A DNA stretch of 64,000 nucleotides from IMG/VR virus record IMGVR_UViG_3300037484_000435, positions 481,323 through 545,322 of that record; one strand, 5' to 3'. Numbering within the stretch: the first letter of the stretch is position 1; each line of letters opens with the position of its first letter. The translations under genes and the position numbers were made by a program. This document shows positions 674 to 16,783 of this stretch, one piece after another. The stretch comes from a virus (Duplodnaviria; Caudoviricetes). Under the pieces are notes generated by a model. That model was not told where the DNA came from. It made no database searches and saw only the letters and a list, made by a program, of their open reading frames with translations.

Positions 674-1783
674 ATGAAATTAACCGTCCCTCTAAAGCTA
701 CTAACCGATGGAACTCAATCTAAAATCCTTCACGATACTATTCTGGAGGCTAATAGGGTAAGTAATTTAATCGCGTCTATTGCTTGGGAACGGCATACAG
801 TAGGTAAGATTGCTCTACAAAAATTAGTTTACCATGATCTACGTAACAAAACTACTCTGTCATCACAAATGTTAATTCATGCGATTCATAAAGTTGCTGA
901 TGCTTATCGGATTAACAAAAAGGTTGTTCCCCAGTTTAACCCCAAAGGTTCTATTGCTTATGATGCACGGATACTTACCGTTCGGAATGAAAAACAATAC
1001 ATCACAATATGGACAACATTGGGACGCATCAAAGTTGCTTACACGTCAGGCACTAAACAGCTTAAGTTATTAAATCAAACTATCAAGATTGGGGAATGTG
1101 ACCTCATCTTGAGAAATAACCGATGGTACCTACATTGCTCTCTAGAAGTTCCTGAGAAGCACCATCAAAAACCCCAAGGCATGTTGGGAGTCGATCTCGG
1201 AATTAAGAATATTGCGGTAACTTCCGACAATAAGGTTTATTGTGGTGCCCAACTTAACAGTTTACGTAAACGCCACTGCCGTTTGCGTGCTAAATTGCAA
1301 TCGAAGGGAACCCGTTCCGCAAAACGGTTGCTACGTAAACGTAGTAAACGTGAATCTCGGATGGCGCGCAACGCTAATCACATAATCTCCAAACGTATTG
1401 TTGCCACGGCTAAATGCACGAAGCGTAGTATTGCCCTTGAAAATCTTAAAGGCATTACTAAGCGGACTAAGGTTTCTAAAGCCCAGCGTAATCAGCAACA
1501 TAGTTGGAGTTTTTACCAACTTAAATCTTTCATTGAATATAAGGCCCGCCTCGTGGGTGTAGAAGTAGTTCTAGTTAATCCTAAAAATACTAGCATCACT
1601 TGCCCTAAATGTGGCTTAATTCGAAAATCCAATCGTCGTGACCGAGATCACTTCGTTTGTAGACGTAAAGAGTGTGGTTACGCTGACCATGCTGATTACG
1701 TGGCCGCTTTAAACATCGCGTCTAAAGCGGCGGTTGTGGGGCATAGCCCTAACGTCAACCAACCCAACGTTTCGGTGGCATAA
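674..1783 (+). CDS. tnpB: IS200/IS605-family TnpB RNA-guided nuclease
   Basis: RuvC-I LGVDLGIKN, RuvC-II IALENL, zinc finger CPKC...CRRKEC, RuvC-III ADYVAALNI; RBS aaggag. Confidence 0.93.
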   Translation: MKLTVPLKLLTDGTQSKILHDTILEANRVSNLIASIAWERHTVGKIALQKLVYHDLRNKTTLSSQMLIHAIHKVADAYRINKKVVPQFNPKGSIAYDARILTVRNEKQYITIWTTLGRIKVAYTSGTKQLKLLNQTIKIGECDLILRNNRWYLHCSLEVPEKHHQKPQGMLGVDLGIKNIAVTSDNKVYCGAQLNSLRKRHCRLRAKLQSKGTRSAKRLLRKRSKRESRMARNANHIISKRIVATAKCTKRSIALENLKGITKRTKVSKAQRNQQHSWSFYQLKSFIEYKARLVGVEVVLVNPKNTSITCPKCGLIRKSNRRDRDHFVCRRKECGYADHADYVAALNIASKAAVVGHSPNVNQPNVSVA

Positions 1784-1826
1784 ACCACTAGAGATAAGTT
1801 CTGGGCTTTAATCCAGAATAGTTGAC
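1740..1826 (+). ncRNA. 3' part of TnpB omega/reRNA and transposon right end (5' boundary approximate)
   Basis: Hairpin ttctgg-gctttaat-ccagaa followed by TAGTTGAC, typical of IS605/IS1341-group right ends; putative guide starts at 1827. Confidence 0.6.
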
Positions 1827-1838
1827 AAATCATTTTAA

Positions 1839-2003
1839 TTAAGATTGATTCTGAGATTTTTCTTTGGGCTTTATATTGGGCCGTTGACGCACGGACAATT
1901 CGCGTCCACAGGATTCACACTTGTAGATGTTTCTTCTACGTGTTCTCCTGTCTAAAACAAACTGACCGCCACAACTTAAGCACTTCAGTCGATCTATTTC
2001 CAT
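1839..2003 (-). CDS. Small zinc-ribbon protein (54 aa; not in ORF track)
   Basis: Manual translation MEIDRLKCLSCGGQ...YKCESCGREL...; two CxxC motifs; RBS ggagagg directly upstream. Confidence 0.7.
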   Translation of the reverse strand: MEIDRLKCLSCGGQFVLDRRTRRRNIYKCESCGRELSVRQRPNIKPKEKSQNQS

Positions 2004-2295
2004 CCTCTCCTAATGAGCACATTTATTGTTATTAGGTAATTTTTACATACAATAGATTTACATTGCACCGAGAATTACCAAACTCGTTAGGGCCTCTTCG
2101 CCAATGTTATAAAGGCTTTTTAGGTAATACACACTACCCCTTACTCTCAGGATTGTTTAATGTATTACAACAGAGCCCACCACTAGAGGAGTATGTTGGG
2201 GGTGTTATGACCTAAATAACGTAGCTTCGTATGAAGCTGAGGCTAGTCAACCAAGGCAGTTTAGTGCCTCCACCATTGAGTGGGAGTTAATTGAC
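2004..2295 (-). ncRNA. Orphan IscB-type omega RNA (HEARO) / non-autonomous IS200/605 element
   Basis: Minus strand reads gtcaa...ttgactagcc...acgttatttaggtcat...attaaaca..ctgagag...aagcctttataac..ggcga.gagg, collinear with the omega RNA upstream of iscB at 9576; no iscB ORF follows. Confidence 0.85.
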
Positions 2296-2358
2296 TCTAC
2301 TCCTTTGCTTACCATAGAAATGTGCTACCCAATATAAAAGGCCAGTTAAACTAGCAGA

Positions 2359-2952
2359 CTATTCTTCGTCGTAGTCCGCTGGGTCAAAATACTCTTCGTC
2401 ATCATCAGTAGGCTCTTCCTCAGCTACTGGAGGTGTAACAGCGGCTGCGGCTGCTGCTGCCAGTGCTCGTGCCTTAGCACGCTCAGCTTTTTCCTCGTCG
2501 GACATCTTGGGCCTGCCCCTTCGCTTGGCTGTTTCCTCAGACGTTTCCTCTTTCGCGGGCGTAACTACCTTGGGAGCGGAAGGTTTAGAAGCAACGGGTT
2601 TAACAGGTTCAGTAACCGCGTCTTGCTTCTCGTATTTTGTTATCAACTCCATGATGCTGGCTTCATCATAGTTGACGTTCATTACTTCAGCCAGTTGCTG
2701 AGCAATAGCAGGGCGGCTAGATTTAGGAACTCCCCCAGCAGCTAACGTTCTGAGAGCAACTGCTTCTCGTTGCAAGCTCAATCTAGTGCTGTCAGCCTTA
2801 TCTAAAGCTTCAAGAGCCTCCTTTCTGGTTGTTTCGTTCGCAACAACCTTCTTCTCCAACCGAATCAATTCCTTTTTGATGTATTCTGGTGTTACTGACA
2901 TTAGTCTCCTCAGACTGTTTTGTGTTCCTCTAAAAATGAGGCAACACTTCAT
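2359..2952 (-). CDS. Hypothetical protein: N-terminal coiled coil, AT-hook-like RRGRPK, acidic tail
   Basis: ORF translation; true start may be the internal MSVTPEY. Confidence 0.65.
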   Translation of the reverse strand: MKCCLIFRGTQNSLRRLMSVTPEYIKKELIRLEKKVVANETTRKEALEALDKADSTRLSLQREAVALRTLAAGGVPKSSRPAIAQQLAEVMNVNYDEASIMELITKYEKQDAVTEPVKPVASKPSAPKVVTPAKEETSEETAKRRGRPKMSDEEKAERAKARALAAAAAAAVTPPVAEEEPTDDDEEYFDPADYDEE

Positions 2953-3217
2953 TTAGCAGTAGGGATTTTTAAATGAACGGCTCCTTTCATTTTTGGTTAA
3001 AAAAATAACCTAATCCCTAACCTTGGTTAAGAAACTCCTTTCTTTCTTTATATAAATTTCTTTCTTTCCCTCCTATACTGACTATCGTCAGATAGGCTGT
3101 ATTAAGGAGGGTAAACCCACCTAAATACTACTGTACCCTGATAAATATATTTATTGATATTGAGGAGGGTTAATAAAAAAACGGACGCCCGCACGCACGG
3201 AAAGAGGAAATTACGAA
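2953..3217. promoter_or_regulatory. Divergent intergenic region between the minus- and plus-strand gene blocks
   Basis: Strand switch, AT-rich tracts, small hairpins; promoter elements not precisely assignable. Confidence 0.4.
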
Positions 3218-3409
3218 ATGTCGAGCGAAAAACCATTGAATGAAAAAGAACTTTATATTTGCTGTCGTTGTGGCTGGATAGGAACGAGGTGGGGAGACTG
3301 TCAACAATGTCCTAATGATGATTTAACGCCAAGGTCTGAGGTTGAACAAACATATCTCAACTGTTTGCAACTACTACAAAAATTTTGGGAATATGACTGG
3401 AATAAGTAA
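3218..3409 (+). CDS. Small zinc-ribbon protein
   Basis: CCRC...CQQC; RBS gagga. Confidence 0.6.
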   Translation: MSSEKPLNEKELYICCRCGWIGTRWGDCQQCPNDDLTPRSEVEQTYLNCLQLLQKFWEYDWNK

Positions 3410-3411
3410 TT

Positions 3412-4203
3412 TTGGAGAGACGGGGAATAACAATGGGATGTTGGAATGGTACTTGTTTGATAAGTAATCTCCCAATCTATGCGGGAGATAAAGTAGTATT
3501 TTTTGTATTAAAGAGAAAACGCTATGCTAAATTAGATGCCGTAGAAGGAGGTCATCATTATGTGGATGACCTGTATGAGCCCTTACTTTACCCTATCGTG
3601 GGGGAGTATGATGACTACGGCTGTATTGAGAATGTGTCCGAAGACTTCTCTTTGATAGAAAAGTATTTTGAAAGCGTTGAATTAACTGAAAACGACTGGG
3701 ACAAAGACAACGATGTTTTCAGAAATATAGAAAGAGGAAATTACAAAGGATACGGCCATGCACTAATTCACAAAGACATCTATGACGCCTTGATCGAGAA
3801 AACCTATGACAGAGGTGAATGGTGGACCAAAGGTAAAAGCCTCAGGGACCATGTAGTAGAAAACATCGAGAAAAAAACAGAGGAATACTTTAGGCATAAA
3901 CAAATTTGGGACAAGGATAACGGGGGCATCCCCTTTAATCTCGTAGGTGGGACGTATGACCTCGTCTGCGGAAGAGATAGTCGCGACTTCTTCATTGCTA
4001 GATACCTCAAGACACAGGATGAAACGCTTCGTAACAAATTGATAGAAACGCACTTAATAAATGTCGTGCTAAGTCAATGTAGGAAATTTTGGTTTACTCA
4101 AACTGGGTCGGGTAGCCAAAGTAGTGAAGTAGAACTGTATGAGATTTTGGCTAATAAGATGATAGAGAAGTGTCAGCGATGGAGTGAAGAGAACGGATAT
4201 TGA
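3412..4203 (+). CDS. Phage hypothetical protein (263 aa; likely start at MGCWNGTC)
   Basis: Long ORF in gene-dense context. Confidence 0.7.
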   Translation: MERRGITMGCWNGTCLISNLPIYAGDKVVFFVLKRKRYAKLDAVEGGHHYVDDLYEPLLYPIVGEYDDYGCIENVSEDFSLIEKYFESVELTENDWDKDNDVFRNIERGNYKGYGHALIHKDIYDALIEKTYDRGEWWTKGKSLRDHVVENIEKKTEEYFRHKQIWDKDNGGIPFNLVGGTYDLVCGRDSRDFFIARYLKTQDETLRNKLIETHLINVVLSQCRKFWFTQTGSGSQSSEVELYEILANKMIEKCQRWSEENGY

Positions 4204-6119: not shown

Positions 6120-7049
6120 GAGTATTCACAGAACTGTTTATTGACGAACTCCGTATCTTGGTAGCTGACAGAGATTACGACATCGATATCTATACCTACG
6201 AAGCAGGAGACCCAGAAGGCTCCAACGAACACCCTTATGTATTTGCCTCTACTACTTTGAGTAAGCATAACTGGGTTTACGGTATAGGTGGCACAGCAGA
6301 AGAAGCTCTGCAGGATTTACAAGAAGTTGTAATAATGTTATATGAAGTCGCGATGGAAGACCTAGAAAACAACCTTGAACACTGCCACCAATCCTACATA
6401 GAGCAAATCAAATGGTGGGCAAACCACTGGAGACTTACAACGATTTATGTTCCTGATGAGGTGGCAGATTTAGAACCTAGTAGCCATGAACGTTGGGAAG
6501 AGTGGTACAGAAAATATGACCCAGAACATATCAAGTATATGGTAACGGGCGAATACGAACCAGAGGAAGAGAATGTTACCTACACGTCAGCAGGTGGACG
6601 AAAAACTAAGTTGTCTTGGATATAAGCCGTGGCCTAACTTTTATGGCCAACCACATGGCTGGTTCATGATTTATAACAACAAGAAACTACACTCAGACAT
6701 ACGACTCCATTACCTTGAATTACCAGAGATAGGAATGGGTCCTTATTATGTCGTTAGTTTCCCGCTCGGTAAAAACCTGTTTGGGATGAATCATCAAGGA
6801 ATCGAAACCCTTCATATTGAAACGGAAGGGGACCTAGACAAAATCATAAGCTTTGTGGACGAATACCACTCCCTCTTCGCTTACCGAGAACCTTGGCATT
6901 ATCAGGGAACTGAGTATGAACCCAAGGATGGTGGGCGCGGGTGGGCCCGAATAATGAAAAGTTGGGCGGATACTGTAGCTCAAAGTTCGTTGGAGTCAGA
7001 AGAGGAGTGGCGTGCATGGAGAAATAAACTGAGCGGAACAACACCATGA
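6116..7049 (+). other. Two hypothetical CDS (6116-6625, 6573-7049)
   Basis: Coupled ORFs, no motif recognised. Confidence 0.6.
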
Positions 7050-7222
7050 TTTCAATAAATCAATTCTACAGTTGTTGGGAAATAACTTCATGGAACGGGC
7101 GGGCAAGTTTAATTATTCACCGCCCGATTAACTGTTGGAAACGTAGTTTTTCTAACTTTAATACGCCTTGGTATCGCCGTATACCTTGGAAACTTATCAA
7201 AATAGAGAGGCACTGGTAATAA

Positions 7223-7564
7223 ATGAGATGGACATTTCCTACCTTTGTTGAGAACAGCGATGACTATGATTTGAAAACCATCGACGTTATAAGCCAAATT
7301 ACAGGAATCTCTAAATCGGAAACTCGACGATTAATGAAAGCAGGAGCTATCAAGTTTGATGGTTACACAACAACTCAACCTGTAGAAGAAAGCCTCCTCT
7401 TCTATGAAGCACCACACGACAAGGGTTTGTTAAAAGTTGGAAAAAGAAAGATGTTTGTTTATAACACGCACGTGGAACAAACCCCACTCATGATTGAAGA
7501 TTATGACCCAACAAACCCAGAACATCAAAATTTGCCTACAGATTATTTGCAGAACTGGGTATAG
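7223..7564 (+). CDS. Stand-alone S4-like RNA-binding protein resembling the TyrRS C-terminal domain
   Basis: SKSETRRLMKAGAIKFDG...LLKVGKRK matches the bacterial TyrRS S4 domain pattern SKSEARRLIxQGAVxxxG...xxxVGKRK. Confidence 0.65.
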   Translation: MRWTFPTFVENSDDYDLKTIDVISQITGISKSETRRLMKAGAIKFDGYTTTQPVEESLLFYEAPHDKGLLKVGKRKMFVYNTHVEQTPLMIEDYDPTNPEHQNLPTDYLQNWV

Positions 7565-7576
7565 TAAGGACAAAAA

Positions 7577-8531
7577 ATGGCTAAAGCAGAAACATTCAAA
7601 CCTATTATACACGCTGGGTATATGATTGAAGAAATACTTATGCGTAAAGAAAGTTTTAAAAGTTGGTGGGTTGTTTGGTACAATCACGAAACCATGGAAA
7701 GTGCTGGAATGGAGCACTTCGATTCCTTTGATGAAGCATCTAAGTGGAATGAGGAAAACCCCCCCAAGAAAATAAAGGAAGGGAACTTTACCAGAGCTAC
7801 AATCATATTTGCGGGTTACTAAAAGGAGTTGTAGATGTTCAAAAGCACTTGGTATGAAGGTGAAGGCGATGACATGCAACGCGTTTCGGCCAAAGAGGCC
7901 AACGATGTAGCGTTCTGCACAGAATTCAATAACGAGCAGTTTCTTCGGGTGGCAGTCTGTGATGTGACTGACCAAGGTCTACCCCTGCCAGCCCCCCATG
8001 TCGTTATAGAAGTGGAAGGGAATTTGTACTGGGAAGGATATATAGACGACCTAAAGGATTTACTCAAAAGAAACACACAGCAAGCCAAGAGCTTGTCAGA
8101 TTAAACGGAGCAATTGTATGACAGTTTTAGATAAGGATACAAACGAAACAACCAAACAGGCTGTTATCAGCACGATCCGTAATACCGTAACGGGTATCCG
8201 CGAGGAATGGGGACGCCTGTTTGGAAAGACTGATGACGTTCATTGGGCCCTCTCAAAGGTGCTAGATGAATTAGAGAAATACAACACCGAGTATCATTCA
8301 TGGGATTGGGCTATCCAAAAACTTCAAGAAGGGAAATATGTAACGTGGATAAACTGGTCCCGCGACAGTTTTCTTGCACTGTCGAATGGACTTTTCACCA
8401 GATATAGTATATTCGATGGTAAGCCCAGATGCATGGGAGACTACCGGTTTGACGTGAGCAAGTTTACCCAAGACGGATGGACTTTATGGGAACCAAGAGA
8501 TGAAATTAATAACGAAAGAACTAATTGCTAA
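7577..8531 (+). other. Three hypothetical CDS (7577-7822, 7835-8104, 8118-8531)
   Basis: Each has an RBS; last has a DUF2829-like WAIQKLQEGKYV segment. Confidence 0.6.
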
Positions 8532-8823
8532 ATTCAAAAAACAAGGTGATACCTCTACGAGGAAAGCAGAAAACATAACTGTAATTGCTAAATTCTTTTG
8601 CCCGTGGGGCTCAGCCACATGGTTTGCTACAGACTATTTCCCAAACGACAATACTTGTTTTGGCTATGCCAACGTCTTGGGAGACGACTGTGCTGAACTG
8701 GGTTATTTCAGTATTGATGAGTTGGAAGAACTAACAGGTCCAATGGGACTTAAAATTGAACGTGACCTTTATTGGAAAGAACGAACACTCCAAGAGGTTA
8801 TGGACTGTAAAGGACATTGCTAA
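8500..8823 (+). CDS. DUF2958-family protein
   Basis: KFFCPWGSATWFATD...CFGY...ELGYFSIDEL...IERDLYW. Confidence 0.75.
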   Translation: MKLITKELIAKFKKQGDTSTRKAENITVIAKFFCPWGSATWFATDYFPNDNTCFGYANVLGDDCAELGYFSIDELEELTGPMGLKIERDLYWKERTLQEVMDCKGHC

Positions 8824-9533
8824 TGAACGGAGAAGACATAACTAAAGAATTTGAATGGCAAGACTCACCAGAACCAAATTACTGTGACAAAAAGTGTGAC
8901 CCACGTAACTGTAGTGCCTTGACTCTAATGCTTGAGGTGTTACACGAATACTTTGTTACGTGCGACGGACAAAAGGAGAGGCTCGTCGGAGCTAAACTGT
9001 GGTCCATTATAAGTGTGTACGTGATTCGACCCGAGATTACCGAAGAGCAGAAAGCGTGGGCCACTAAAGCATTTAGAGAATTAGCTAATAAAACGTTTGA
9101 TGACGTAGCTGATCGACACAATTACGGCCCCGACCCTAACTCGGAGAAGAAATGGTAAGAGGAAAAGGCTATGGGACGAATTACTAAATTGCTTAAAGAT
9201 ATACTGTATTCCGTAGAAAAAACAACATATGACCCACTGATGGTTTGTCTACTTGAAAAAACGGAAAAGAATATGTTACAGTGGTATAGAACCACTAAAG
9301 CTGACGGGAGCTACACCACCAAAGACGGAGACCTTACCTTTGAGATCAGACACTATAACGGTTATGAAGACGCATGGAGTGAGATCACCGTGAAGGACCA
9401 CGACAACGTTACAATTAAAACAATGTCCCATGGGGCTGAGCGTCTATACCAAATCCTATACAGACGAGAGATGGCCCCAATGTGGAAATACCAAACAGAA
9501 TGTGTAGATACTTACCTAAAAGAAAACTGTTGA
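8817..9533 (+). other. Two hypothetical CDS (8817-9158, 9171-9533)
   Basis: Coupled ORFs. Confidence 0.6.
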
Positions 9534-9575
9534 TAGTTTAACCTTCCTCATTCCTAATTTATATGGAGGTAACGT

Positions 9576-9800
9576 GTCAATTCCTTGTCTTTATGAGATA
9601 GACTTGAAAAAATTAAGTCTAATTGACTAGCCCCCACCCAATGAGTGGAAACGTTATTTAGGTCATGCTACCTGAAAATGCTCCTCAAGTTTTCAGCCCT
9701 AGCGTTTAGGATTAAACAGTTCTGAGAGGTAGGAACAGTGTTCTAAACTTAACAAGCCTTTATAACTGGGCGATGAGGCTCTAACCCTAAGTTGCATCAG
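9576..9800 (+). ncRNA. IscB omega RNA (HEARO)
   Basis: gtcaa...ttgactagcc...acgttatttaggtcat...attaaacag...aagcctttataac...ggcgatgagg directly upstream of iscB; 3' boundary approximate. Confidence 0.88.
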
Positions 9801-9822
9801 CAACAAGGAGTAAAAACTTATT

Positions 9823-11061
9823 GTGTTAGTTTATGTATTAAACAAATGTGGAAAGCCTTTAATGCCCACTACACCACCTAAGGCTAGAATTTTGCTTAAG
9901 GGAGGCAACGCTAAAGTTACCCGAAGAACTCCCTTCACCATACAATTACTCTATGGAAGTTCGGGCTATAAACAACCTATAATGTTGGGTGTAGATTCGG
10001 GTTACGAGCATGTTGGATTGAGTGCTATCACAGAGAAACAAGAATTATTTTCAGCAGAAGTTTTGCTTAGAAAAGACGTTTCTAAATTGTTAACAGAACG
10101 TCGTGCTTATCGTCGTAATAGGCGTGATAGGAAAGTTCGTTATCGTCAACCTCGGTTTCTGAACCGCGTTAGAACAAAACGTAAGGGCTGGCTCGCCCCC
10201 CCTATTCAGCACAAACTGGATAGCCATATTAAGGTAGTAAATAAAGTTTCTGAAATATTACCAATTACAAACATCATAGTAGAAGTAGCCAATTTTGATG
10301 TTCAGCGTATCAAGAATCCTGAGATTAAGGGTAAAGAGTATCAGGAAGGTGACCAGTTTGGTTTTGAGAACGTAAGGGCGTATGTATTGCACCGAGATGA
10401 GCACAAATGCCAGCATTGTAAAGGTAAATCTGGTAACAAACATCTTAATACCCATCACATTGTTTTCAGAAGCAAAGGAGGGAGTGATAGGCCCGATAAC
10501 CTTATTACATTGTGTAAAACATGCCACGACAAACAGCACAAGGGTTTAATCAAACTCAAGGTTAGCCATAGCCGTAGTTTTAAGACTGAAACTTTTATGT
10601 CTATTGTTAGGTATAAAATTGTTGAGCGATTACGTGAGTTGTATAATAACGCGGATACAACATACGGCTATATTACAAAGGCGTTACGTAAGCAGTTATT
10701 TTTAACTAAATCACATATTAACGATGCTTTCATAATTGCTGGGGCTAACATACAAATCCGCAATACCAAAAATTATCTAATTAAACAGGTTCGTAAACAA
10801 AATCGTAAACTATTCAAGGGTGCCCGTAGTCACACTAAGAACACTGCTCAAAGATTTCTCTTCGGTTTTCAACGTTATGATAAAGTAAAGTTTAATAACA
10901 AAGATTATCACATATTCGGAAGAAGGCAGAGAGGGTGTTTTAAACTAAGTAATCTAGAGTCAGGACTCTTAAAAACTGAACCCACCTATAAGAAACTAAA
11001 ACTTCTGGAAAGCTTCAAAACATTTTTATGGGAGGTAAAGATGGTCCCTAACAATGTTTAG
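9823..11061 (+). CDS. iscB: IscB RNA-guided endonuclease (RRXRR/HEARO-associated)
   Basis: PLMP motif, RuvC-I LGVDSG, Arg-rich bridge helix, RuvC-II IVEVANFD, HNH HHIVFRSKGGSDRPDNLITLCKTCHDKQH, RuvC-III SHINDA. Confidence 0.95.
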   Translation: MLVYVLNKCGKPLMPTTPPKARILLKGGNAKVTRRTPFTIQLLYGSSGYKQPIMLGVDSGYEHVGLSAITEKQELFSAEVLLRKDVSKLLTERRAYRRNRRDRKVRYRQPRFLNRVRTKRKGWLAPPIQHKLDSHIKVVNKVSEILPITNIIVEVANFDVQRIKNPEIKGKEYQEGDQFGFENVRAYVLHRDEHKCQHCKGKSGNKHLNTHHIVFRSKGGSDRPDNLITLCKTCHDKQHKGLIKLKVSHSRSFKTETFMSIVRYKIVERLRELYNNADTTYGYITKALRKQLFLTKSHINDAFIIAGANIQIRNTKNYLIKQVRKQNRKLFKGARSHTKNTAQRFLFGFQRYDKVKFNNKDYHIFGRRQRGCFKLSNLESGLLKTEPTYKKLKLLESFKTFLWEVKMVPNNV

Positions 11062-11081
11062 GTAGACCATTACACAAAGGT

Positions 11082-11282
11082 ATGGATTGGCAGATTGGAG
11101 ACATAGCAGTTATTGACCAAGATTATGATCGCTCAGCAAGCGACAGTCTATTCTATTTACTGGAGTTCTCGAACGATACAGCAAGTGGTTACCTAGAAAA
11201 AGATAATCAGAAAATCGATTATTCCTGCCCCATATCAAAAATCAGAAGAGTTGCAAAAGTAATAAAGTTCCACACACAATAA
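11082..11282 (+). CDS. Small hypothetical protein
   Basis: ORF starting ATGGA right after the IscB element. Confidence 0.6.
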   Translation: MDWQIGDIAVIDQDYDRSASDSLFYLLEFSNDTASGYLEKDNQKIDYSCPISKIRRVAKVIKFHTQ

Positions 11283-11302
11283 CAAACAGAAAGGATGGGT
11301 CT

Positions 11303-11971
11303 ATGGCTCTTAAAGTTGGCGTAATCGGAGGCACATTCAATCCTATTCATAACGGACATTTACGGCTGGCGGAAGTCATGCTGGAGGCAGAGAAATTTGA
11401 TAATATTATTTTTGTTCCCTCTTTTAACCCGCCCTTAAAAGACCAAGACATCGTTTCCTTTGACCAGAGAGTGAGCATGCTTCAACTTGCCATAGAGGAC
11501 AATCCCTCCTTTGTAATCTCTACAATTGAACAAGACCTCTTAGGAAAATCCTATACCTTCAACATGCTACAAAAACTAATAGAAGAGTCCCCCAGTGTAG
11601 AGTTTACTTTTATCCTCGGGGCCGAGTGTTGGAATCAGATGAAGTCTTGGTATAAACCCATTGAAACTCTCGGTCTCTGTGATTTCCTGTTTGTGTGTGA
11701 TTCTGAACGAAGGTGTGCTGGGGATATTGCTTGGTCTGAGGGCGACCCGATGGTAAGACAGGCTCTTGGGGTAGTGCATAATAACAAGAAAGAATTTGTG
11801 CATCCCTCAGGAACTCGGGTAAGGTTCGAGGTTCACCCAACCCCTAAGATACGATCGACAGAGATAAGGTGGATATGTGCAAAGGGAAAAAGTTGTAGAT
11901 ACCTTCTACCAGAGAGTGTCTACAAATATATTCTACAACACAGGCTTTATAATTTATCCCAAAAGTTTTAA
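11303..11971 (+). CDS. nadD: Nicotinate-nucleotide adenylyltransferase
   Basis: GVIGGTFNPIHNGH (HIGH-like), FILGAE, IRSTEIR (SST-like), YLLPESVYKYI. Confidence 0.92.
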   Translation: MALKVGVIGGTFNPIHNGHLRLAEVMLEAEKFDNIIFVPSFNPPLKDQDIVSFDQRVSMLQLAIEDNPSFVISTIEQDLLGKSYTFNMLQKLIEESPSVEFTFILGAECWNQMKSWYKPIETLGLCDFLFVCDSERRCAGDIAWSEGDPMVRQALGVVHNNKKEFVHPSGTRVRFEVHPTPKIRSTEIRWICAKGKSCRYLLPESVYKYILQHRLYNLSQKF

Positions 11972-12027
11972 TTAACTTTCTAACTAAAATAGCTACTAAA
12001 GTTATCTTACACGGAGTTATTTTGTAG

Positions 12028-13113
12028 ATGATTGTGAAACATGCCTATAAATATCACATATACCCTAATACTGACCAAAAGAAACAACTTGAATCTTACT
12101 TTGGATGTTCTAGGTATGTCTATAATCATTATTTAAAACAAAGAATTGATTGCTATATGTTGCACAAAGTCGGTCTCGGGTATGTGGACAACTGTAGTGA
12201 CCTAGTATTTCTAAAGAGACAAAAGCCTTGGTTGTCTGAAGCCATCGCTCAGTCATTACAGGCATCACTCAAGGATCTTGAATCAGCTTACACTAATTTT
12301 TTTAGAGGGACCACAAAATTTCCGAGTTTCAAGAAAAAACACAACAAACAAAGTTTTCGTGTTCCCCAAAAATTCAAGGTCAATTCCACTTCAATTACTA
12401 TCCCTAAGGTGGGCAAGATCAAAGCCAAAATACATCGTCCAATAGGAGACAAGATCTGCAATGTTACTATTAGTAAAACTCCTGCAGGAAAGTATTATGC
12501 TTCTGTGTTATGTGAAGTTTATATTGAGGATCCAAAATTTGAAGGCAATATAATCGGGATCGATTTGGGGATTAGAGATTATTTGGTTGACAGTAATGGG
12601 AATCGCGTCCCTAACCCGAAATATCTTCAAAAGTCCTTAGTGAAGCTTAAACGACTCCAACAAATACTAAGTAGCAAAGTTCAAGGTTCTAGTGATTACC
12701 ATAAATTACGGCGTAAGCTTGCGAAACTACACGAAAAGATTCAGAACCAACGTTCAGATTTTCAGCATAAACTTGCTTTACAACTGGTGCGTGAAAACCA
12801 AACCATCTGTTGTGAAACTTTAGCTGTAAAGAGGATGTTGACTGAGTCTGATCCAGTGCTAGCCAGATACATTTTAGATGCAGGATGGTACCAGTTCATT
12901 TCTTTTTTGAATTACAAAGGACCTTGGTATGGTTGCCACATAAATCAAATAGAGCAGTTTTATCCTAGCAGTAAACGGCATTTCGAATGTGGTTATATTA
13001 ATGAACATCTAAACCTTTCTGATAGAGAGTGGTTATGCCCACAATGTAACTCGATGGTTGATAGAGACCTTAATGCTGCTAAAAATATTCTCGCCGCGGG
13101 GACCGCGGTTTAA
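12028..13113 (+). CDS. tnpB: IS605-family TnpB with N-terminal HTH
   Basis: AYKYHIYPN...FGCSRYVYN, RuvC-I IGIDLGI, RuvC-II CCETL, H/CxxC zinc finger, DRDLNAAKNI. Confidence 0.93.
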   Translation: MIVKHAYKYHIYPNTDQKKQLESYFGCSRYVYNHYLKQRIDCYMLHKVGLGYVDNCSDLVFLKRQKPWLSEAIAQSLQASLKDLESAYTNFFRGTTKFPSFKKKHNKQSFRVPQKFKVNSTSITIPKVGKIKAKIHRPIGDKICNVTISKTPAGKYYASVLCEVYIEDPKFEGNIIGIDLGIRDYLVDSNGNRVPNPKYLQKSLVKLKRLQQILSSKVQGSSDYHKLRRKLAKLHEKIQNQRSDFQHKLALQLVRENQTICCETLAVKRMLTESDPVLARYILDAGWYQFISFLNYKGPWYGCHINQIEQFYPSSKRHFECGYINEHLNLSDREWLCPQCNSMVDRDLNAAKNILAAGTAV

Positions 13114-13160
13114 AGCCAGTTAATACTGGAAATTATTATCCTTGGATGATAATAGTCCAC
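13090..13160 (+). ncRNA. 3' part of TnpB reRNA / right end (5' boundary approximate)
   Basis: 10-bp hairpin attattatcc-tt-ggatgataat then AGTCCAC, paralleling TAGTTGAC of the first TnpB. Confidence 0.55.
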
Positions 13161-13206
13161 CTCGTGCCTGAGCCCGTGTATATATTTATAAAAGAAAAGA
13201 AATTAT

Positions 13207-14865
13207 ATGCGGGCATGTACACATAAGAAAGGAATCACAATGCTACCCACAAAAATCCTAGCAGACGGGATTGAAAGAGCTTTTGAACACCGAAAGTTTC
13301 CATGGGATTTCTATTTTATCGCGATGGCAGAAGCTGATTGGCGGGCTGGTCGAGCAGATTTACCAGCAACCAAGAGTTTTTATATACGAAACGCTCCCTT
13401 TGGCGGAAGTTACTGTCTCCTTGGTGGTATCACTGAGGCTCTAGTAACTATTAAGAATCTGGATTTCCTCAGCAAAGATTTCTTTCACGGTGCTGTTCAT
13501 ATGGGCTCTTCTCCAGATTTTGTGAATTGGCTGGCTGTTCGAGAAAGGTTGCGTATTCGTGTTATTGGTGGGAGAGAGGGAACTGTGTTCTTCCCCAACG
13601 AACCTATCGTAACAGTACAGGGGCCATTAGCAGATATTCGTTTGGTTGAGGGTATTCTGACTTATGCCCTGAACTTTTCTTCTTTGTCGTTAACTAAGTG
13701 GTATCGAGTCGTAAAAGCGGCCCGCCCAGGACAAGTTTTGGATTTCTCTTTGAGAAGGGCACAGAACAGTAGACGTGCATCCCTGAACGCAATGCTGGCA
13801 GGATGCTCTGCCACATCTAACTGCGACATAGCAGAATTCTTTGACGTTCCCGTCCGAGGCACAATGGGACATGAATACCCAATGGGTCATGGAGACGTTA
13901 AGATAGCTTTTGAGCAGTGGTTGGAATATCAACCTAATCGACCTATCGGTTTGATTGACACCCTGCAATGCTTGGAGAACGACTTTCCTCTTTGGCTCGA
14001 CGCTGTATACAAATATCGGGAAAAGATTAAGAATGCAGGGTCTCCTATTTGGGGATGGCGAAATGATTCGGGTGACCTCGGTTACCTAACAGTTGAGCAA
14101 TACAGACGCTTCCTCAACCATGAGTTGGCAAAGGACGAATGGTTCCGAGAGCGGATGAGGGTTATTTTAACGAATGAGCTGGACGAGTATACAATCACAG
14201 CGATTATAAACCAAATAAGAGATGATGCTGAGCCCGCAGGTTTAGATGTCCATGATATCAAAAGTCGGATTATATGGGCGGCGGGCACGCGACCTGGAGT
14301 TTGCGAAGACCAGCCCTCTCTGGGCGGTGTAGCCAAACTTATGGAAGTAGACGGTTGTCCTACTCTTAAACCAGCATTGGATTCGGATGGACATCCTGGT
14401 CCCAAGACGTCGATACCAGGATTTAATCTATCGTGCTTGGTGCCCAATGGAGACAGCAGTATCGCATGTTGTCTAATATATCCTGCACATCATTATAATC
14501 TTGTGTCCGATGGAGCAGGTGGGTGGTCTTTACACAATAAAAAGACAAGCAAGACACCCAAAACAATAGTCACCATGCACAAGGATTCCAGCTCGTCTTT
14601 TATGGAGTTGAAAAATCAAGGTTTGATTGCACAGCAAGATTGCCTCTACGATTCTACCCAAGGTGCTTCCGTGCTAGGTGACGCGTGGCTGGAAACACTA
14701 GATGGAGTTACAAAGCGGATAGAAGATGGTATTGGTAGACTCCACTTCACAATGACATCGAGGCTGGTGAAGCCCCACAGTATGAAAGTATCGGTAACAC
14801 CCGACCTCTTTGAGCTGCGGGATTCTATGTTGAAAAATAAGACCTTGATGGGAGAGAAATCTTAA
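13207..14865 (+). CDS. pncB: Nicotinate phosphoribosyltransferase (likely start MLPTK)
   Basis: FYIRNAPFGGSY, DFSLRRAQ, GTMGH (phospho-His), LIDT, RNDSGDL, TNELDE, GGVAKL: Firmicute/eukaryote-type NAPRTase motifs. Confidence 0.85.
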   Translation: MRACTHKKGITMLPTKILADGIERAFEHRKFPWDFYFIAMAEADWRAGRADLPATKSFYIRNAPFGGSYCLLGGITEALVTIKNLDFLSKDFFHGAVHMGSSPDFVNWLAVRERLRIRVIGGREGTVFFPNEPIVTVQGPLADIRLVEGILTYALNFSSLSLTKWYRVVKAARPGQVLDFSLRRAQNSRRASLNAMLAGCSATSNCDIAEFFDVPVRGTMGHEYPMGHGDVKIAFEQWLEYQPNRPIGLIDTLQCLENDFPLWLDAVYKYREKIKNAGSPIWGWRNDSGDLGYLTVEQYRRFLNHELAKDEWFRERMRVILTNELDEYTITAIINQIRDDAEPAGLDVHDIKSRIIWAAGTRPGVCEDQPSLGGVAKLMEVDGCPTLKPALDSDGHPGPKTSIPGFNLSCLVPNGDSSIACCLIYPAHHYNLVSDGAGGWSLHNKKTSKTPKTIVTMHKDSSSSFMELKNQGLIAQQDCLYDSTQGASVLGDAWLETLDGVTKRIEDGIGRLHFTMTSRLVKPHSMKVSVTPDLFELRDSMLKNKTLMGEKS

Positions 14866-14926
14866 ACGCACGAATAGGTAAGGGCATTTTTTAATGTCCT
14901 TACCTTAACACACGAAAGGATTAGAC

Positions 14927-16783
14927 ATGACTACTACGAGGGTAGCGTTAGCACAAATAAACCCTACCGTTGGGGACTTTGACCTGAACAAAAGTCTCAT
15001 TCTAAACTCTTTGACCTTGGCCCAGCGCGCAGGATGCGACATAATCGTATTTCCTGAGCTTGTTGTTTGTGGCTATCCTCCAGAGGACCTGCTGTTGAAG
15101 CAATCCTTTTTGACAAAATGCCACGAAGCTGTGGAATCTATAGCAGAGGAAGCTACAGATATAGTTGCATTAGTGGGGTCCCCTTGGAAGTTCAATTGGG
15201 GTAAACACAGACACGAATTCAATAGAAATGGGGAAGAACTCTACAACGCGGCAGTAATCTTGGCTGATGGTAAAGTGCAAGATGTCTACTTCAAAACTGA
15301 ACTCCCCAACTACGGTGTGTTTGATGAGAAGAGATATTTCTCTCGACTCGAAACACCCGAGTGTTTAGTGTTTGTCATGAATGGTGTCCGTTTTTGTATT
15401 ACCATTTGTGAGGATATCTGGGTCGAGCAGTCTCCTGTGAGAACACTCGCAGCAATGAATAACGTGGATGTCACGTTAAACTTGTCCGCTTCTCCTTTCT
15501 TCGCAGGCAAATTAACTACGTCCCGTTACGAAGCATTGTCCCAGTATTGCCTGAAAACTGGCACTTCCCTGATATATACAAATTTAATCGGGGGACAAGA
15601 TAGCCTAATCTTTGATGGTACTAGTCTAGTGATGGACCATCGTGGTAAGATTCGTTACGTAGCAAAAAGATTCGAGGAAGATTTTTTGGTAGTGGACCTA
15701 GATGAAAGCTTTATGAAGAACAAGACTGAGGGGTATATGTTCCGTGACTACTACTCTACCACGTCTTCCATTGAAAGGGACTTTGCTCAGAAGTTTGAGA
15801 CCATTGGCAACGCGAAATCCACAATTCAACCTGATACTCCACAACAACATGGACCATTTGATGATTTTACGGATGTTCTGCGTGGGCAAACTGAGGTAGA
15901 AGAAGTCTACTTGGCTTTAAAGAGGGGCCTTATAGATTATGTTGACAAGAATGGATTCCCTAAAGTTGTTGTTGCTGTGAGTGGTGGTATTGACTCAGCG
16001 GTCACTCTTGCACTCGCTGTAGAAACCTTGGGGATCAACCGAGTAGTTGGTATAACGATGCCTTCCAGAATTACATCTGACGATACGCAGGACGATGCAG
16101 TAACGCTGATGGAAAACTTTGGAATTCAGCAAGACACAATCCATATTGAACATCTTGTTAATATGTATATTGAGTCTATTGCACATAGTAAAATCTGGGC
16201 TAATGCACTAGAAGAAAATCCTGTGGTGTGGGAAAACATTCAAGCACGTATCAGGGGTAACGTCTTGATGGCACTCTCCAATCAGTTCGGTTGGTTGGTC
16301 CTCTCCACAGGCAACAAGAGCGAGACCGCAGTTGGATATTGCACCCTATATGGGGATATGGTAGGAGGATTCTCTATCCTAAAAGACGTTTACAAGACGT
16401 TGGTTTACAAAATTGGCCATTACATCAATATGAAGCGCCATGAGAGGGGTCTTCTTGGGATCCCCATAAGTACTTTTGAAAGGCCACCTAGTGCGGAGTT
16501 GGCCGAGGGACAAACTGACGAGGAAGTGTTGGGTCCCTACAGTGTTCTGGATAAAGTTCTCGAAGCTTACATTGAGAAAGAGATGTCCGTAACGGAAGTA
16601 AAGGAATTCTTTGGGGCATTGGCCTTTCCTCCCTTAAAAGACATGAAAGCATATGTTGAAAAGATTGTAAGGATGGTAGACCGAAACGAATACAAACGTC
16701 GACAAAGTTGTCCTGGTGTGAAAATAACTCCGAAAGACTTTGGGAAGGATAGGCGTCTACCAATAACAAACGCCTATATTTAA
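14927..16783 (+). CDS. nadE: Glutamine-dependent NAD+ synthetase
   Basis: Nitrilase triad FPEL / KTELPNYGVFDEKRYF / ICEDIW; synthetase SGGIDS, NIQARIRG, TGNKSE, TLYGDM, PPSAEL. Confidence 0.95.
   Translation: MTTTRVALAQINPTVGDFDLNKSLILNSLTLAQRAGCDIIVFPELVVCGYPPEDLLLKQSFLTKCHEAVESIAEEATDIVALVGSPWKFNWGKHRHEFNRNGEELYNAAVILADGKVQDVYFKTELPNYGVFDEKRYFSRLETPECLVFVMNGVRFCITICEDIWVEQSPVRTLAAMNNVDVTLNLSASPFFAGKLTTSRYEALSQYCLKTGTSLIYTNLIGGQDSLIFDGTSLVMDHRGKIRYVAKRFEEDFLVVDLDESFMKNKTEGYMFRDYYSTTSSIERDFAQKFETIGNAKSTIQPDTPQQHGPFDDFTDVLRGQTEVEEVYLALKRGLIDYVDKNGFPKVVVAVSGGIDSAVTLALAVETLGINRVVGITMPSRITSDDTQDDAVTLMENFGIQQDTIHIEHLVNMYIESIAHSKIWANALEENPVVWENIQARIRGNVLMALSNQFGWLVLSTGNKSETAVGYCTLYGDMVGGFSILKDVYKTLVYKIGHYINMKRHERGLLGIPISTFERPPSAELAEGQTDEEVLGPYSVLDKVLEAYIEKEMSVTEVKEFFGALAFPPLKDMKAYVEKIVRMVDRNEYKRRQSCPGVKITPKDFGKDRRLPITNAYI

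What the first reader, a model, noticed from the sequence alone, without database searches (positions are those of the whole stretch)
2004..2295. Orphan IscB omega RNA with covarying scaffold, 7 kb from an intact IscB
Seen: the minus-strand element shares exact blocks with the iscB omega RNA (ttgactagcc, acgttatttaggtcat, aagcctttataac). Paired segments differ in sequence but keep complementarity (gtttagga/ttctaaac vs gtaataca/tgtattac), so the fold appears to have been under selection. Only a trace resembling the iscB start (ctattgtatgta) follows, then a terminal hairpin. Established: stand-alone omega RNAs can load IscB in trans. Inference: the IscB at 9823 may have two guides, the second being the flank ...ctatggtaagcaaaggagtaga, which could target related phages lacking this insertion.
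Basis: partly seen in the sequence, partly recalled or inferred. Interest (0 to 1): 0.68.

Follow-up and report, generated by a model that had tools for sequence, protein, structure and literature searches.

The report
Orphan IscB guide-RNA mini-transposon in phage
A 292-base jumping-gene remnant in a 545-kb phage still carries an intact guide-RNA gene of an IscB nuclease (a Cas9 ancestor) but no nuclease gene. It sits exactly between the ribosome-binding site and start codon of a small phage gene. It is a clean, well-bounded example of a kind of element that is already known.

Summary
Window 2086-2295 (minus strand) is a full-length HEARO/omega RNA at 129.3 bits against a gathering score of 83, the best of four in this 545-kb phage. 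The other three each precede an IscB gene.

What I added:
- Four related phage loci with DNA in hand (54-71% identity in the neighbouring protein) carry the uninterrupted site.
- The element is therefore exactly window 2004-2295. It was inserted N|ATGG, without duplication, between the Shine-Dalgarno sequence and the ATG of a conserved 54-aa zinc-ribbon gene.
- It starts with GTCA and keeps a subterminal hairpin shared with two IscB-bearing copies.
- Its 16-nt guide is the ribosome-binding-site flank. The sampled empty alleles differ from it at 4-5 of 16 positions and have the same ATGGAA next to the target.

What does not hold:
- The "trace of the iscB start" is not above chance.
- Covariation shows descent from a working lineage, not selection after the nuclease was lost.
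- The four omega RNAs are only 59-68% alike. The orphan's nearest nuclease-linked relatives have IscBs about 50% identical to the phage's, so use by the IscB at 9823 is untested.

In this RNA subfamily 48 of 79 assessable external copies are orphans, and the kind is published. This scan has also noted such orphans on other DNA. Verdict: a new member of a known kind, of modest interest.

The parts
2004..2295 (-). Whole protein-less ISC/IS200-IS605-type mini-element (292 nt)
   Evidence: Four related loci (L258-L261) read straight from the Shine-Dalgarno flank into ATGGAA. The window has 292 extra bases at that point and no target duplication.
2086..2295 (-). Omega RNA scaffold (HEARO, RF02033), full length, starting GTCA
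   Evidence: 129.3 bits, E 1.7e-26, model positions 1-211. It is the best-scoring of four copies in the genome.
2296..2311 (-). Guide position: 16 nt of flanking DNA (TAAGCAAAGGAGTAGA), which contains the original Shine-Dalgarno of the 54-aa gene
   Evidence: It lies directly 5' of the scaffold. It is unique in the genome at up to 2 mismatches. The homologous stretch of the empty sites differs at 4-5 of 16 positions.
2069..2086 (-). 3' hairpin just after the Rfam model (4-bp stem, 10-nt loop)
   Evidence: The closest omega RNA (L072, also an orphan) has the same hairpin and near-identical loop, with two compensatory stem changes.
2009..2036 (-). Subterminal hairpin CCTAAT...ATTAGG at the far end of the element
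   Evidence: A CCTAA...TTAGG hairpin also lies at the far ends of the IscB elements at window 11046-11062 and genome ~134.8 kb, and in inverted order in L072.
2004..2011 (-). Element-borne replacement Shine-Dalgarno (AGGAGAGG) directly before the ATG
   Evidence: Read from the sequence. It partly overlaps the hairpin arm. That it works as a ribosome-binding site is inferred.
1839..2003 (-). 54-aa zinc-ribbon gene whose start codon (ATGG, 2003-2000) is the insertion target and presumed TAM
   Evidence: Weak zinc-ribbon Pfam hits. A 62%-identical homologue was found, and the gene is conserved in the same position in L258-L261.
9576..9785 (+). Nearest nuclease-linked omega RNA
   Evidence: HEARO, 127.5 bits.
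9823..11061 (+). IscB (412 aa), apparently intact
   Evidence: RRXRR and HNH domains. E 1e-47 to OgeuIscB chains with catalytic motifs aligned.
674..1783 (+). TnpB element on the other side of the 54-aa gene (a separate insertion, not part of the orphan)
   Evidence: OrfB_IS605 and Cas12f1-like TNB domains. It is absent from the same position in L258-L261 and in three further gene tables.

Best explanation
Shown: window 2004-2295 (minus strand) is a protein-less, non-autonomous derivative of an ISC (IscB-type, IS200/IS605 superfamily) transposon, that is, a PATE-like mini-element. It keeps a complete omega RNA gene at one end and the subterminal hairpin at the other. It entered this phage lineage after it split from all sampled relatives except near-identical strains. 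It inserted at N|ATGG, between the ribosome-binding site and the start codon of a conserved 54-aa zinc-ribbon gene. The genome has no Y1 transposase, so the element cannot move by itself here. Inferred: it is transcribed in the leader of the 54-aa gene, on the same strand as both neighbouring genes. The RNA would then be a 5' guide equal to the old ribosome-binding-site flank, followed by the scaffold. If any IscB accepts that scaffold in trans, the complex would cut only genomes with the uninterrupted site (16-nt match followed by ATGG). The break would be repaired from the element-bearing copy, or the rival genome would be destroyed. This is the known selfish 'homing/retention' logic of OMEGA elements, applied to co-infecting phages. 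I put the identity and insertion history at about 0.9. I put present-day trans use by one of the three phage IscBs at about 0.3. The overall confidence below is for identity, history and the selfish-element reading taken together.
For: Full-length HEARO match, the best of four in the genome. Empty sites in L258-L261 fix both boundaries, and three further relatives without DNA have gene spacing that fits the empty layout. The GTCA terminus and the N|ATGR target match the published ISC1-type pattern of 5'-GTCA termini and N|ATGA (PMC4810608). The CCTAA/TTAGG far-end hairpin is shared with two IscB-bearing copies. No PF01797 transposase in the genome. No IscB coding remnant at the locus. A strain variant from another sample (L262) carries the identical element. 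Orphans are common in this RNA subfamily: 48 orphan and 26 IscB-linked among 79 assessable external hits. Three apparently intact IscB genes are in the same genome. Trans use of stand-alone omega RNAs is reported (PMC9581776; Meers preprint).
Against: The orphan scaffold is only 65-68% identical to the resident omega RNAs. Its nearest nuclease-linked relatives have IscBs about 50% identical to the phage IscBs, so cross-loading is uncertain. The sampled empty alleles have 4-5 mismatches to the guide. The element is a single copy in the genome, so nothing shows that it moved as a mini-element rather than losing iscB in place. The intact structure may simply reflect a recent insertion.
Confidence: 0.8

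Rival explanations
1. Inert relic. The element is a recent, neutral or slightly harmful insertion whose RNA is not used by any nuclease. Its intact fold reflects youth, not selection.
For: The insertion is absent from every relative sampled at 54-86% neighbour identity. It is identical in the one strain variant, so there is no divergence from which to read constraint. The scaffold lineage differs from all resident IscB lineages. There is no transposase. The tail shows no significant similarity to anything.
Against: It has the highest covariance-model score of the four copies, with no broken conserved block. Orphans with intact folds are the majority in this subfamily, and published work shows some are functional.
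Confidence: 0.5
2. A second guide specifically for the IscB at window 9823. This would give that nuclease two targets and a weapon against related phages lacking the insertion.
For: The two lie 7 kb apart. Both elements are followed by ATGGA, whereas the other two IscB elements are followed by ATGAC. All the single-stranded blocks of the scaffold are identical between the two RNAs.
Against: The TAM inference rests on one insertion per element. The orphan's nearest nuclease-linked relatives sit at ATGA. The orphan core is 77% identical to the genome-136-kb copy but 71% to the 9576 copy. The empty alleles carry 4-5 mismatches.
Confidence: 0.2
3. Exapted cis-acting leader. The structured RNA now controls translation or stability of the 54-aa gene's mRNA.
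For: It lies inside the 5' leader. It separates the old Shine-Dalgarno from the ATG and supplies a new one that is partly buried in the terminal hairpin.
Against: Relatives manage without it. The same layout is the ordinary consequence of N|ATGR targeting, seen at all four phage elements and at 16 of 28 cyanobacterial mini-elements. Nothing suggests a ligand or a switch.
Confidence: 0.05
4. The RNA is loaded by an IscB of the host cell rather than of the phage.
For: The exact 16-nt core block of this subfamily is frequent in filamentous cyanobacteria and other bacteria. The orphan's nearest linked relatives are non-phage metagenome contigs.
Against: The host is unknown, and there is no host sequence to test.
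Confidence: 0.1

Closest known systems
HEARO RNA (Rfam RF02033), the omega RNA of IscB, e.g. OgeuIscB-omega RNA (PDB 7utn, 7xht)
   Same: Full-length match to the covariance model, including the long-range helices and the pseudoknot arms. The guide position is directly 5' of the GTCA start.
   Different: No iscB follows. The 3' hairpin after the model differs from that of the resident IscB-linked copies.
Stand-alone omega RNAs that work with IscB in trans (Altae-Tran et al. 2021, as cited in Hirano et al. 2022, PMC9581776), and PATE-like elements encoding omega RNAs (Meers et al. 2023 preprint, 10.1101/2023.03.14.532601)
   Same: A protein-less element with both transposon ends and a guide-RNA gene, in a genome that also holds intact nuclease genes.
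   Different: It is on a 545-kb phage, is a single copy, belongs to a scaffold lineage unlike the resident nucleases, and trans activity is untested here.
ISC1-type transposons with 5'-GTCA termini inserted at N|ATGA (Kapitonov, Makarova and Koonin 2016, PMC4810608)
   Same: GTCA terminus, insertion immediately 5' of an ATGR tetranucleotide, no target duplication, subterminal hairpin, and verification by empty orthologous loci.
   Different: The fourth target base is G here (ATGG) rather than A, and no IscB is encoded.
Free-standing homing endonucleases of T-even phages (localized marker exclusion; reviewed in PMC13565253)
   Same: The proposed outcome is the same: cutting of a co-infecting relative that lacks the insertion, then repair from the carrier genome.
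   Different: Recognition would be by an RNA guide plus a nuclease encoded elsewhere. This is entirely inferred here.

Membership tests
HEARO / IscB omega RNA (RF02033) | Score at or above the curated gathering threshold over the full model | tested here: met
   129.3 bits against 83, model 1-211 of 211, no truncation.
HEARO / IscB omega RNA (RF02033) | Helices supported by compensatory changes among relatives | tested here: met
   22 of 37 RNAalifold pairs show double changes that keep pairing across seven RNAs, including this one.
HEARO / IscB omega RNA (RF02033) | Lies directly upstream of an IscB/HNH ORF | tested here: not met
   No IscB-like sequence at the locus. The next ORF is a 54-aa zinc-ribbon gene. 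This is what makes it an orphan. 48 of 79 assessable external members of the subfamily share the state.
HEARO / IscB omega RNA (RF02033) | Binds IscB and guides DNA cleavage | not testable with these tools
   Needs biochemistry.
Non-autonomous ISC / PATE-like mini-element (IS200/IS605 superfamily) | Discrete insertion relative to an empty orthologous site, without target-site duplication | tested here: met
   L258-L261 are empty, and the flanks join precisely.
Non-autonomous ISC / PATE-like mini-element (IS200/IS605 superfamily) | Family-specific terminus and 4-bp target (5'-GTCA; N|ATGA type) | tested here: met
   It starts GTCA and is inserted N|ATGG. The other three phage copies sit at N|ATGG or N|ATGA. 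The published pattern is in PMC4810608.
Non-autonomous ISC / PATE-like mini-element (IS200/IS605 superfamily) | Subterminal hairpins of the kind bound by the Y1 transposase | tested here: inconclusive
   A far-end hairpin is shared with two IscB-bearing copies. Binding by a transposase is not testable, and no matching hairpin was defined at the omega RNA end.
Non-autonomous ISC / PATE-like mini-element (IS200/IS605 superfamily) | Multiple copies or other evidence that the protein-less form itself transposes | tested here: not met
   It is a single copy in the 545-kb genome. No close copy was found in the loci fetched. There is no Y1 transposase in the genome. Loss of iscB in place cannot be excluded.

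The most novel reading that the evidence does not exclude
The megaphage uses this orphan RNA as an extra, trans-acting guide for one of its three IscB nucleases. The complex would cut the ribosome-binding-site/start-codon junction of the zinc-ribbon gene in co-infecting relatives that lack the insertion. That would be RNA-guided marker exclusion between phages, and a natural case of one IscB served by several unlinked guides.
Probability: 0.22. Interest if true: 0.6.

Novelty: new member of a known kind. Interest (0 to 1): 0.3.

Why it matters
The kind is already described: stand-alone omega RNAs, PATE-like derivatives and the N|ATGA target are all published. This example is unusually well resolved. 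Both boundaries are fixed by four empty alleles, so the natural target (16 nt plus ATGGAA) is known exactly, and three candidate partner nucleases lie in the same genome. That makes it a ready test case for two open practical questions. How far can IscB orthologues and omega RNA scaffolds diverge and still cross-load? Do phage-borne OMEGA elements act in phage-phage competition? If the RNA is inert, the locus is just a dated transposon scar.

Tried and rejected
2. An 18-nt guide-flank search of viral contigs gave one hit (L017). It lies inside unrelated coding sequence and is a chance match.
3. The neighbouring 197-aa and 54-aa proteins found no relatives in viral contigs. Relatives came only from the large protein collection.
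4. 'Remnant of the iscB start': local alignments of the tail to iscB 5' regions are no better than shuffles. A blastn-short search of the tail against all fetched loci found nothing.
5. The 9-mer TAGTTTAAC upstream of both the orphan and the 9576 copy looked like a shared promoter or an extended end. It occurs 5 times in the genome against about 8 expected, so it is chance.
6. Homing footprint: strain contig L262 is 100% identical over window -1006..3480, with diverged flanks, roughly centred on the two insertions. A control contig (L264, window 6866-15533) is likewise identical except for one 500-nt patch. Identity is therefore the baseline between these strains, and the tract is not evidence of co-conversion.
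7. Assigning the partner nuclease by TAM (ATGG against ATGA) or by scaffold similarity: the two criteria point to different IscBs, and each rests on very little data.
8. Relatives of the gene upstream of the 9576 element, sought to verify that element's empty site: none were found apart from the same phage.
9. The closest relative (86% identity; sample 3300075153) has no DNA available. Its 290-nt gap fits the empty layout, but its match to the guide is unknown.

Full report
**Setting.** The window is the last 64 kb (bases 481323-545322) of a 545,322-bp virus record that CheckV rates as complete. Earlier notes of this scan describe it as a sediment megaphage.

**Observation.**
- cmscan against Rfam finds two HEARO (RF02033) matches in the window. 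One is at 2086-2295 on the minus strand (129.3 bits, E 1.7e-26, model 1-211 of 211). The other is at 9576-9785 on the plus strand (127.5 bits).
- The second is followed by a 412-aa ORF with RRXRR and HNH domains. That ORF aligns to OgeuIscB chains at E about 1e-47, with the RuvC and HNH catalytic positions conserved.
- The first is followed by no IscB-like sequence.
- On an alignment of seven omega RNAs, RNAalifold predicts 37 pairs, and 22 keep pairing through changes on both sides.
- The observation therefore stands, except for the "trace of the iscB start". Local alignments of the 82-nt tail to the iscB 5' regions of the two nearest resident copies are no better than shuffled sequence (p 0.11-0.55).

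**Genome context.**
- The whole phage has four HEARO RNAs. Three stand directly upstream of IscB-size ORFs of 412, about 401-420 and about 408-414 aa. The fourth is the orphan.
- Pairwise identity among the four RNAs is only 59-68%, so none is a recent copy of another.
- There is no Y1 transposase (PF01797) in the genome.
- A TnpB gene (window 674-1783, plus strand) converges on the orphan. A 54-aa zinc-ribbon ORF (2003-1839, minus strand) lies between them.

**Boundaries and insertion history.** This is the main new result.
- The 197-aa neighbour and the 54-aa protein have relatives in the large protein collection.
- Their contigs all show the same order of genes: neighbour gene, about 60 nt, 54-aa gene, a 113-116-aa gene, then a poly(A) polymerase gene wherever the contig reaches that far. 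None has an omega RNA or a TnpB.
- In the four with DNA (L258-L261), the conserved intergenic sequence runs through a Shine-Dalgarno AAGGAG and 4 more bases straight into ATGGAA, the start of the zinc-ribbon gene. In the window the same two flanks are separated by 292 bases that begin GTCA.
It is inserted N|ATGG without target duplication.
- This matches the published ISC1-type pattern of 5'-GTCA termini and an N|ATGA target, which was itself verified by empty loci (PMC4810608).
- The far end carries a CCTAAT/ATTAGG hairpin (2036-2009). A CCTAA/TTAGG hairpin also lies at the far ends of two IscB-bearing copies, and in inverted order in L072. The orphan thus appears to keep both ends.
- Its last 8 bases form a new Shine-Dalgarno in front of the displaced ATG.
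- A 5.2-kb contig from another sample (L262, 98.7% identical overall) carries the identical element and TnpB.

**The guide.**
- The 16 nt 5' of the scaffold are unique in the genome at up to two mismatches.
- Against the empty alleles they mismatch at 5 (L258), 5 (L259) and 4 (L260, L261) positions. For L259-L261 only one mismatch falls in the ten scaffold-proximal bases. The adjacent ATGGAA is identical in all.
- The empty allele therefore exists in nature. The sampled ones are imperfect targets, and the closest relative (86% identity) has no DNA available.

**How ordinary is an orphan?**
- I scanned metagenome and genome contigs for the 16-nt core block and searched the fetched loci with nhmmer. 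This gave 89 external omega RNA hits.
- tblastn with the three phage IscBs on 1.8 kb downstream of each hit gave these classes:

| Class | Hits |
|---|---|
| IscB-linked | 26 |
| Orphan (at least 500 nt downstream, no IscB) | 48 |
| Partial IscB match | 5 |
| Too close to a contig end to assess | 10 |

- Orphans dominate in Microcoleus, Tychonema, Nostoc and their kin. There they form mini-elements of about 420 nt that start at the scaffold's first base and end just before ATGA or GTGA. In 16 of 28 such elements that triplet opens an ORF of at least 50 codons.
- A 14-kb phage contig (L015) has two orphan omega RNAs in tandem upstream of a tail-sheath gene.
- The literature already states that stand-alone omega RNAs can work with IscB (PMC9581776). 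It also states that PATE-like elements often encode omega RNAs that need a nuclease in trans (Meers et al. preprint).
- Earlier reports of this scan reached the same verdict on other genomes.

**Which nuclease, if any?**
- The orphan's core is 77% identical to the copy at genome 136 kb and 71% to the 9576 copy.
- Its closest relative is another orphan (L072, 76%).
- Its closest nuclease-linked relatives (77-79%) have IscBs only about 50% identical to each of the phage's three, which are 56-67% identical to one another.
- The bases after the far end are ATGGA for the orphan and the 9576 element, and ATGAC for the other two. This weakly favours the 9823 IscB. However, it rests on one insertion each, and the orphan's linked relatives sit at ATGA.
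- The partner is therefore open, and cross-loading is plausible but unproven.

**Selection.** Covariation between the orphan and the other copies shows only that it descends from a lineage in which the fold mattered. The only orthologous copy (L262) is identical, so there is no divergence since insertion from which to infer constraint. The high model score fits a recent insertion as well as it fits selection.

**Rejected leads.**
- A shared upstream 9-mer is chance.
- A 4.5-kb tract of perfect identity around the insertions in L262 looked like a co-conversion footprint. A control contig elsewhere in the window (L264) shows that near-total identity with small diverged patches is the baseline between these strains.

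**Conclusion.** This is a real, precisely bounded, protein-less ISC mini-element carrying an intact omega RNA. It inserted in the leader of a small conserved phage gene after this lineage split from all sampled relatives. Its most likely mode of action, if it has one, is the known selfish one: a guide against the empty site, used in trans by an IscB. I rate the identity at about 0.9 and present-day trans use at about 0.3. It is a new member of a known kind.

Noticed in passing
window 2295/2004 and 9576/11081; genome 27045/~28520 and 136267/~134770: All four ISC elements of the phage sit immediately 5' of an ATGR that opens the next ORF. Each 16-nt guide flank holds a Shine-Dalgarno-like run 4-8 nt before the junction, so each reconstructed empty site reads SD-spacer-ATG. 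Insertion at start codons seems to be what survives from N|ATGR targeting.
   Followed up: partly
window 674-1783 (+) and flanks ~404-673 and 1784-1822: A TnpB element is inserted on the other side of the same 54-aa gene. It is absent from all related loci. Two unrelated OMEGA-type insertions therefore bracket one small gene.
   Followed up: partly
window 12028-13113 (+): A further TnpB-like ORF (361 aa). The gene table of the 99.8%-identical contig L264 gives OrfB_IS605 and Cas12f1-like TNB for it. The tblastn search with the first TnpB did not find it.
   Followed up: no
L010:943-1962 (-), i.e. genome ~470976-471995: A 339-aa protein with the RRXRR domain only (IsrB-like, no HNH). It is preceded by about 180 nt of non-coding DNA that matches no Rfam family even at E 1.
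   Followed up: partly
L015:4362-5261 (-): A 14-kb viral contig has two orphan omega RNAs in tandem, each about 340-360 nt with a CCCCT...AGGGG far-end hairpin. They lie between small ORFs upstream of a tail-sheath gene.
   Followed up: partly
loci L139-L257 (Microcoleus, Tychonema, Nostoc and others): Orphan omega RNA mini-elements of about 420 nt are abundant in filamentous cyanobacteria. They end just before ATGA or GTGA, and in 16 of 28 cases that triplet starts an ORF of at least 50 codons.
   Followed up: partly
window 2312-2345 (-) and the homologous stretch of L258-L261: A block of about 19 nt (GTGTAGCACATTT and neighbouring bases) upstream of the 54-aa gene is nearly invariant in relatives whose neighbouring protein is only 54-71% identical. 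It may be a gene-specific promoter or operator. It is not repeated elsewhere in the genome.
   Followed up: partly
genome 334806-334821 (-): The guide flank of the genome-136-kb IscB element has a 15/16 (17-nt extended) match here. It encodes the same AKEIF peptide and is followed by ACAA, not ATGR, so it is probably a paralogous coding motif and not a target.
   Followed up: partly
L262 against window -1546..-1007 and 3481-3597; L264 against window 13812-14313: Strain-variant contigs from another sample are identical to the window except for short patches of 4-29% divergence. This is a mosaic typical of recombination among co-occurring strains.
   Followed up: partly
genome 1-145 and 545178-545322: The first 30 bases of the record recur 145 bases from its end, suggesting a terminal overlap or repeat. 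The two ends are not identical over the full 145 bases.
   Followed up: no
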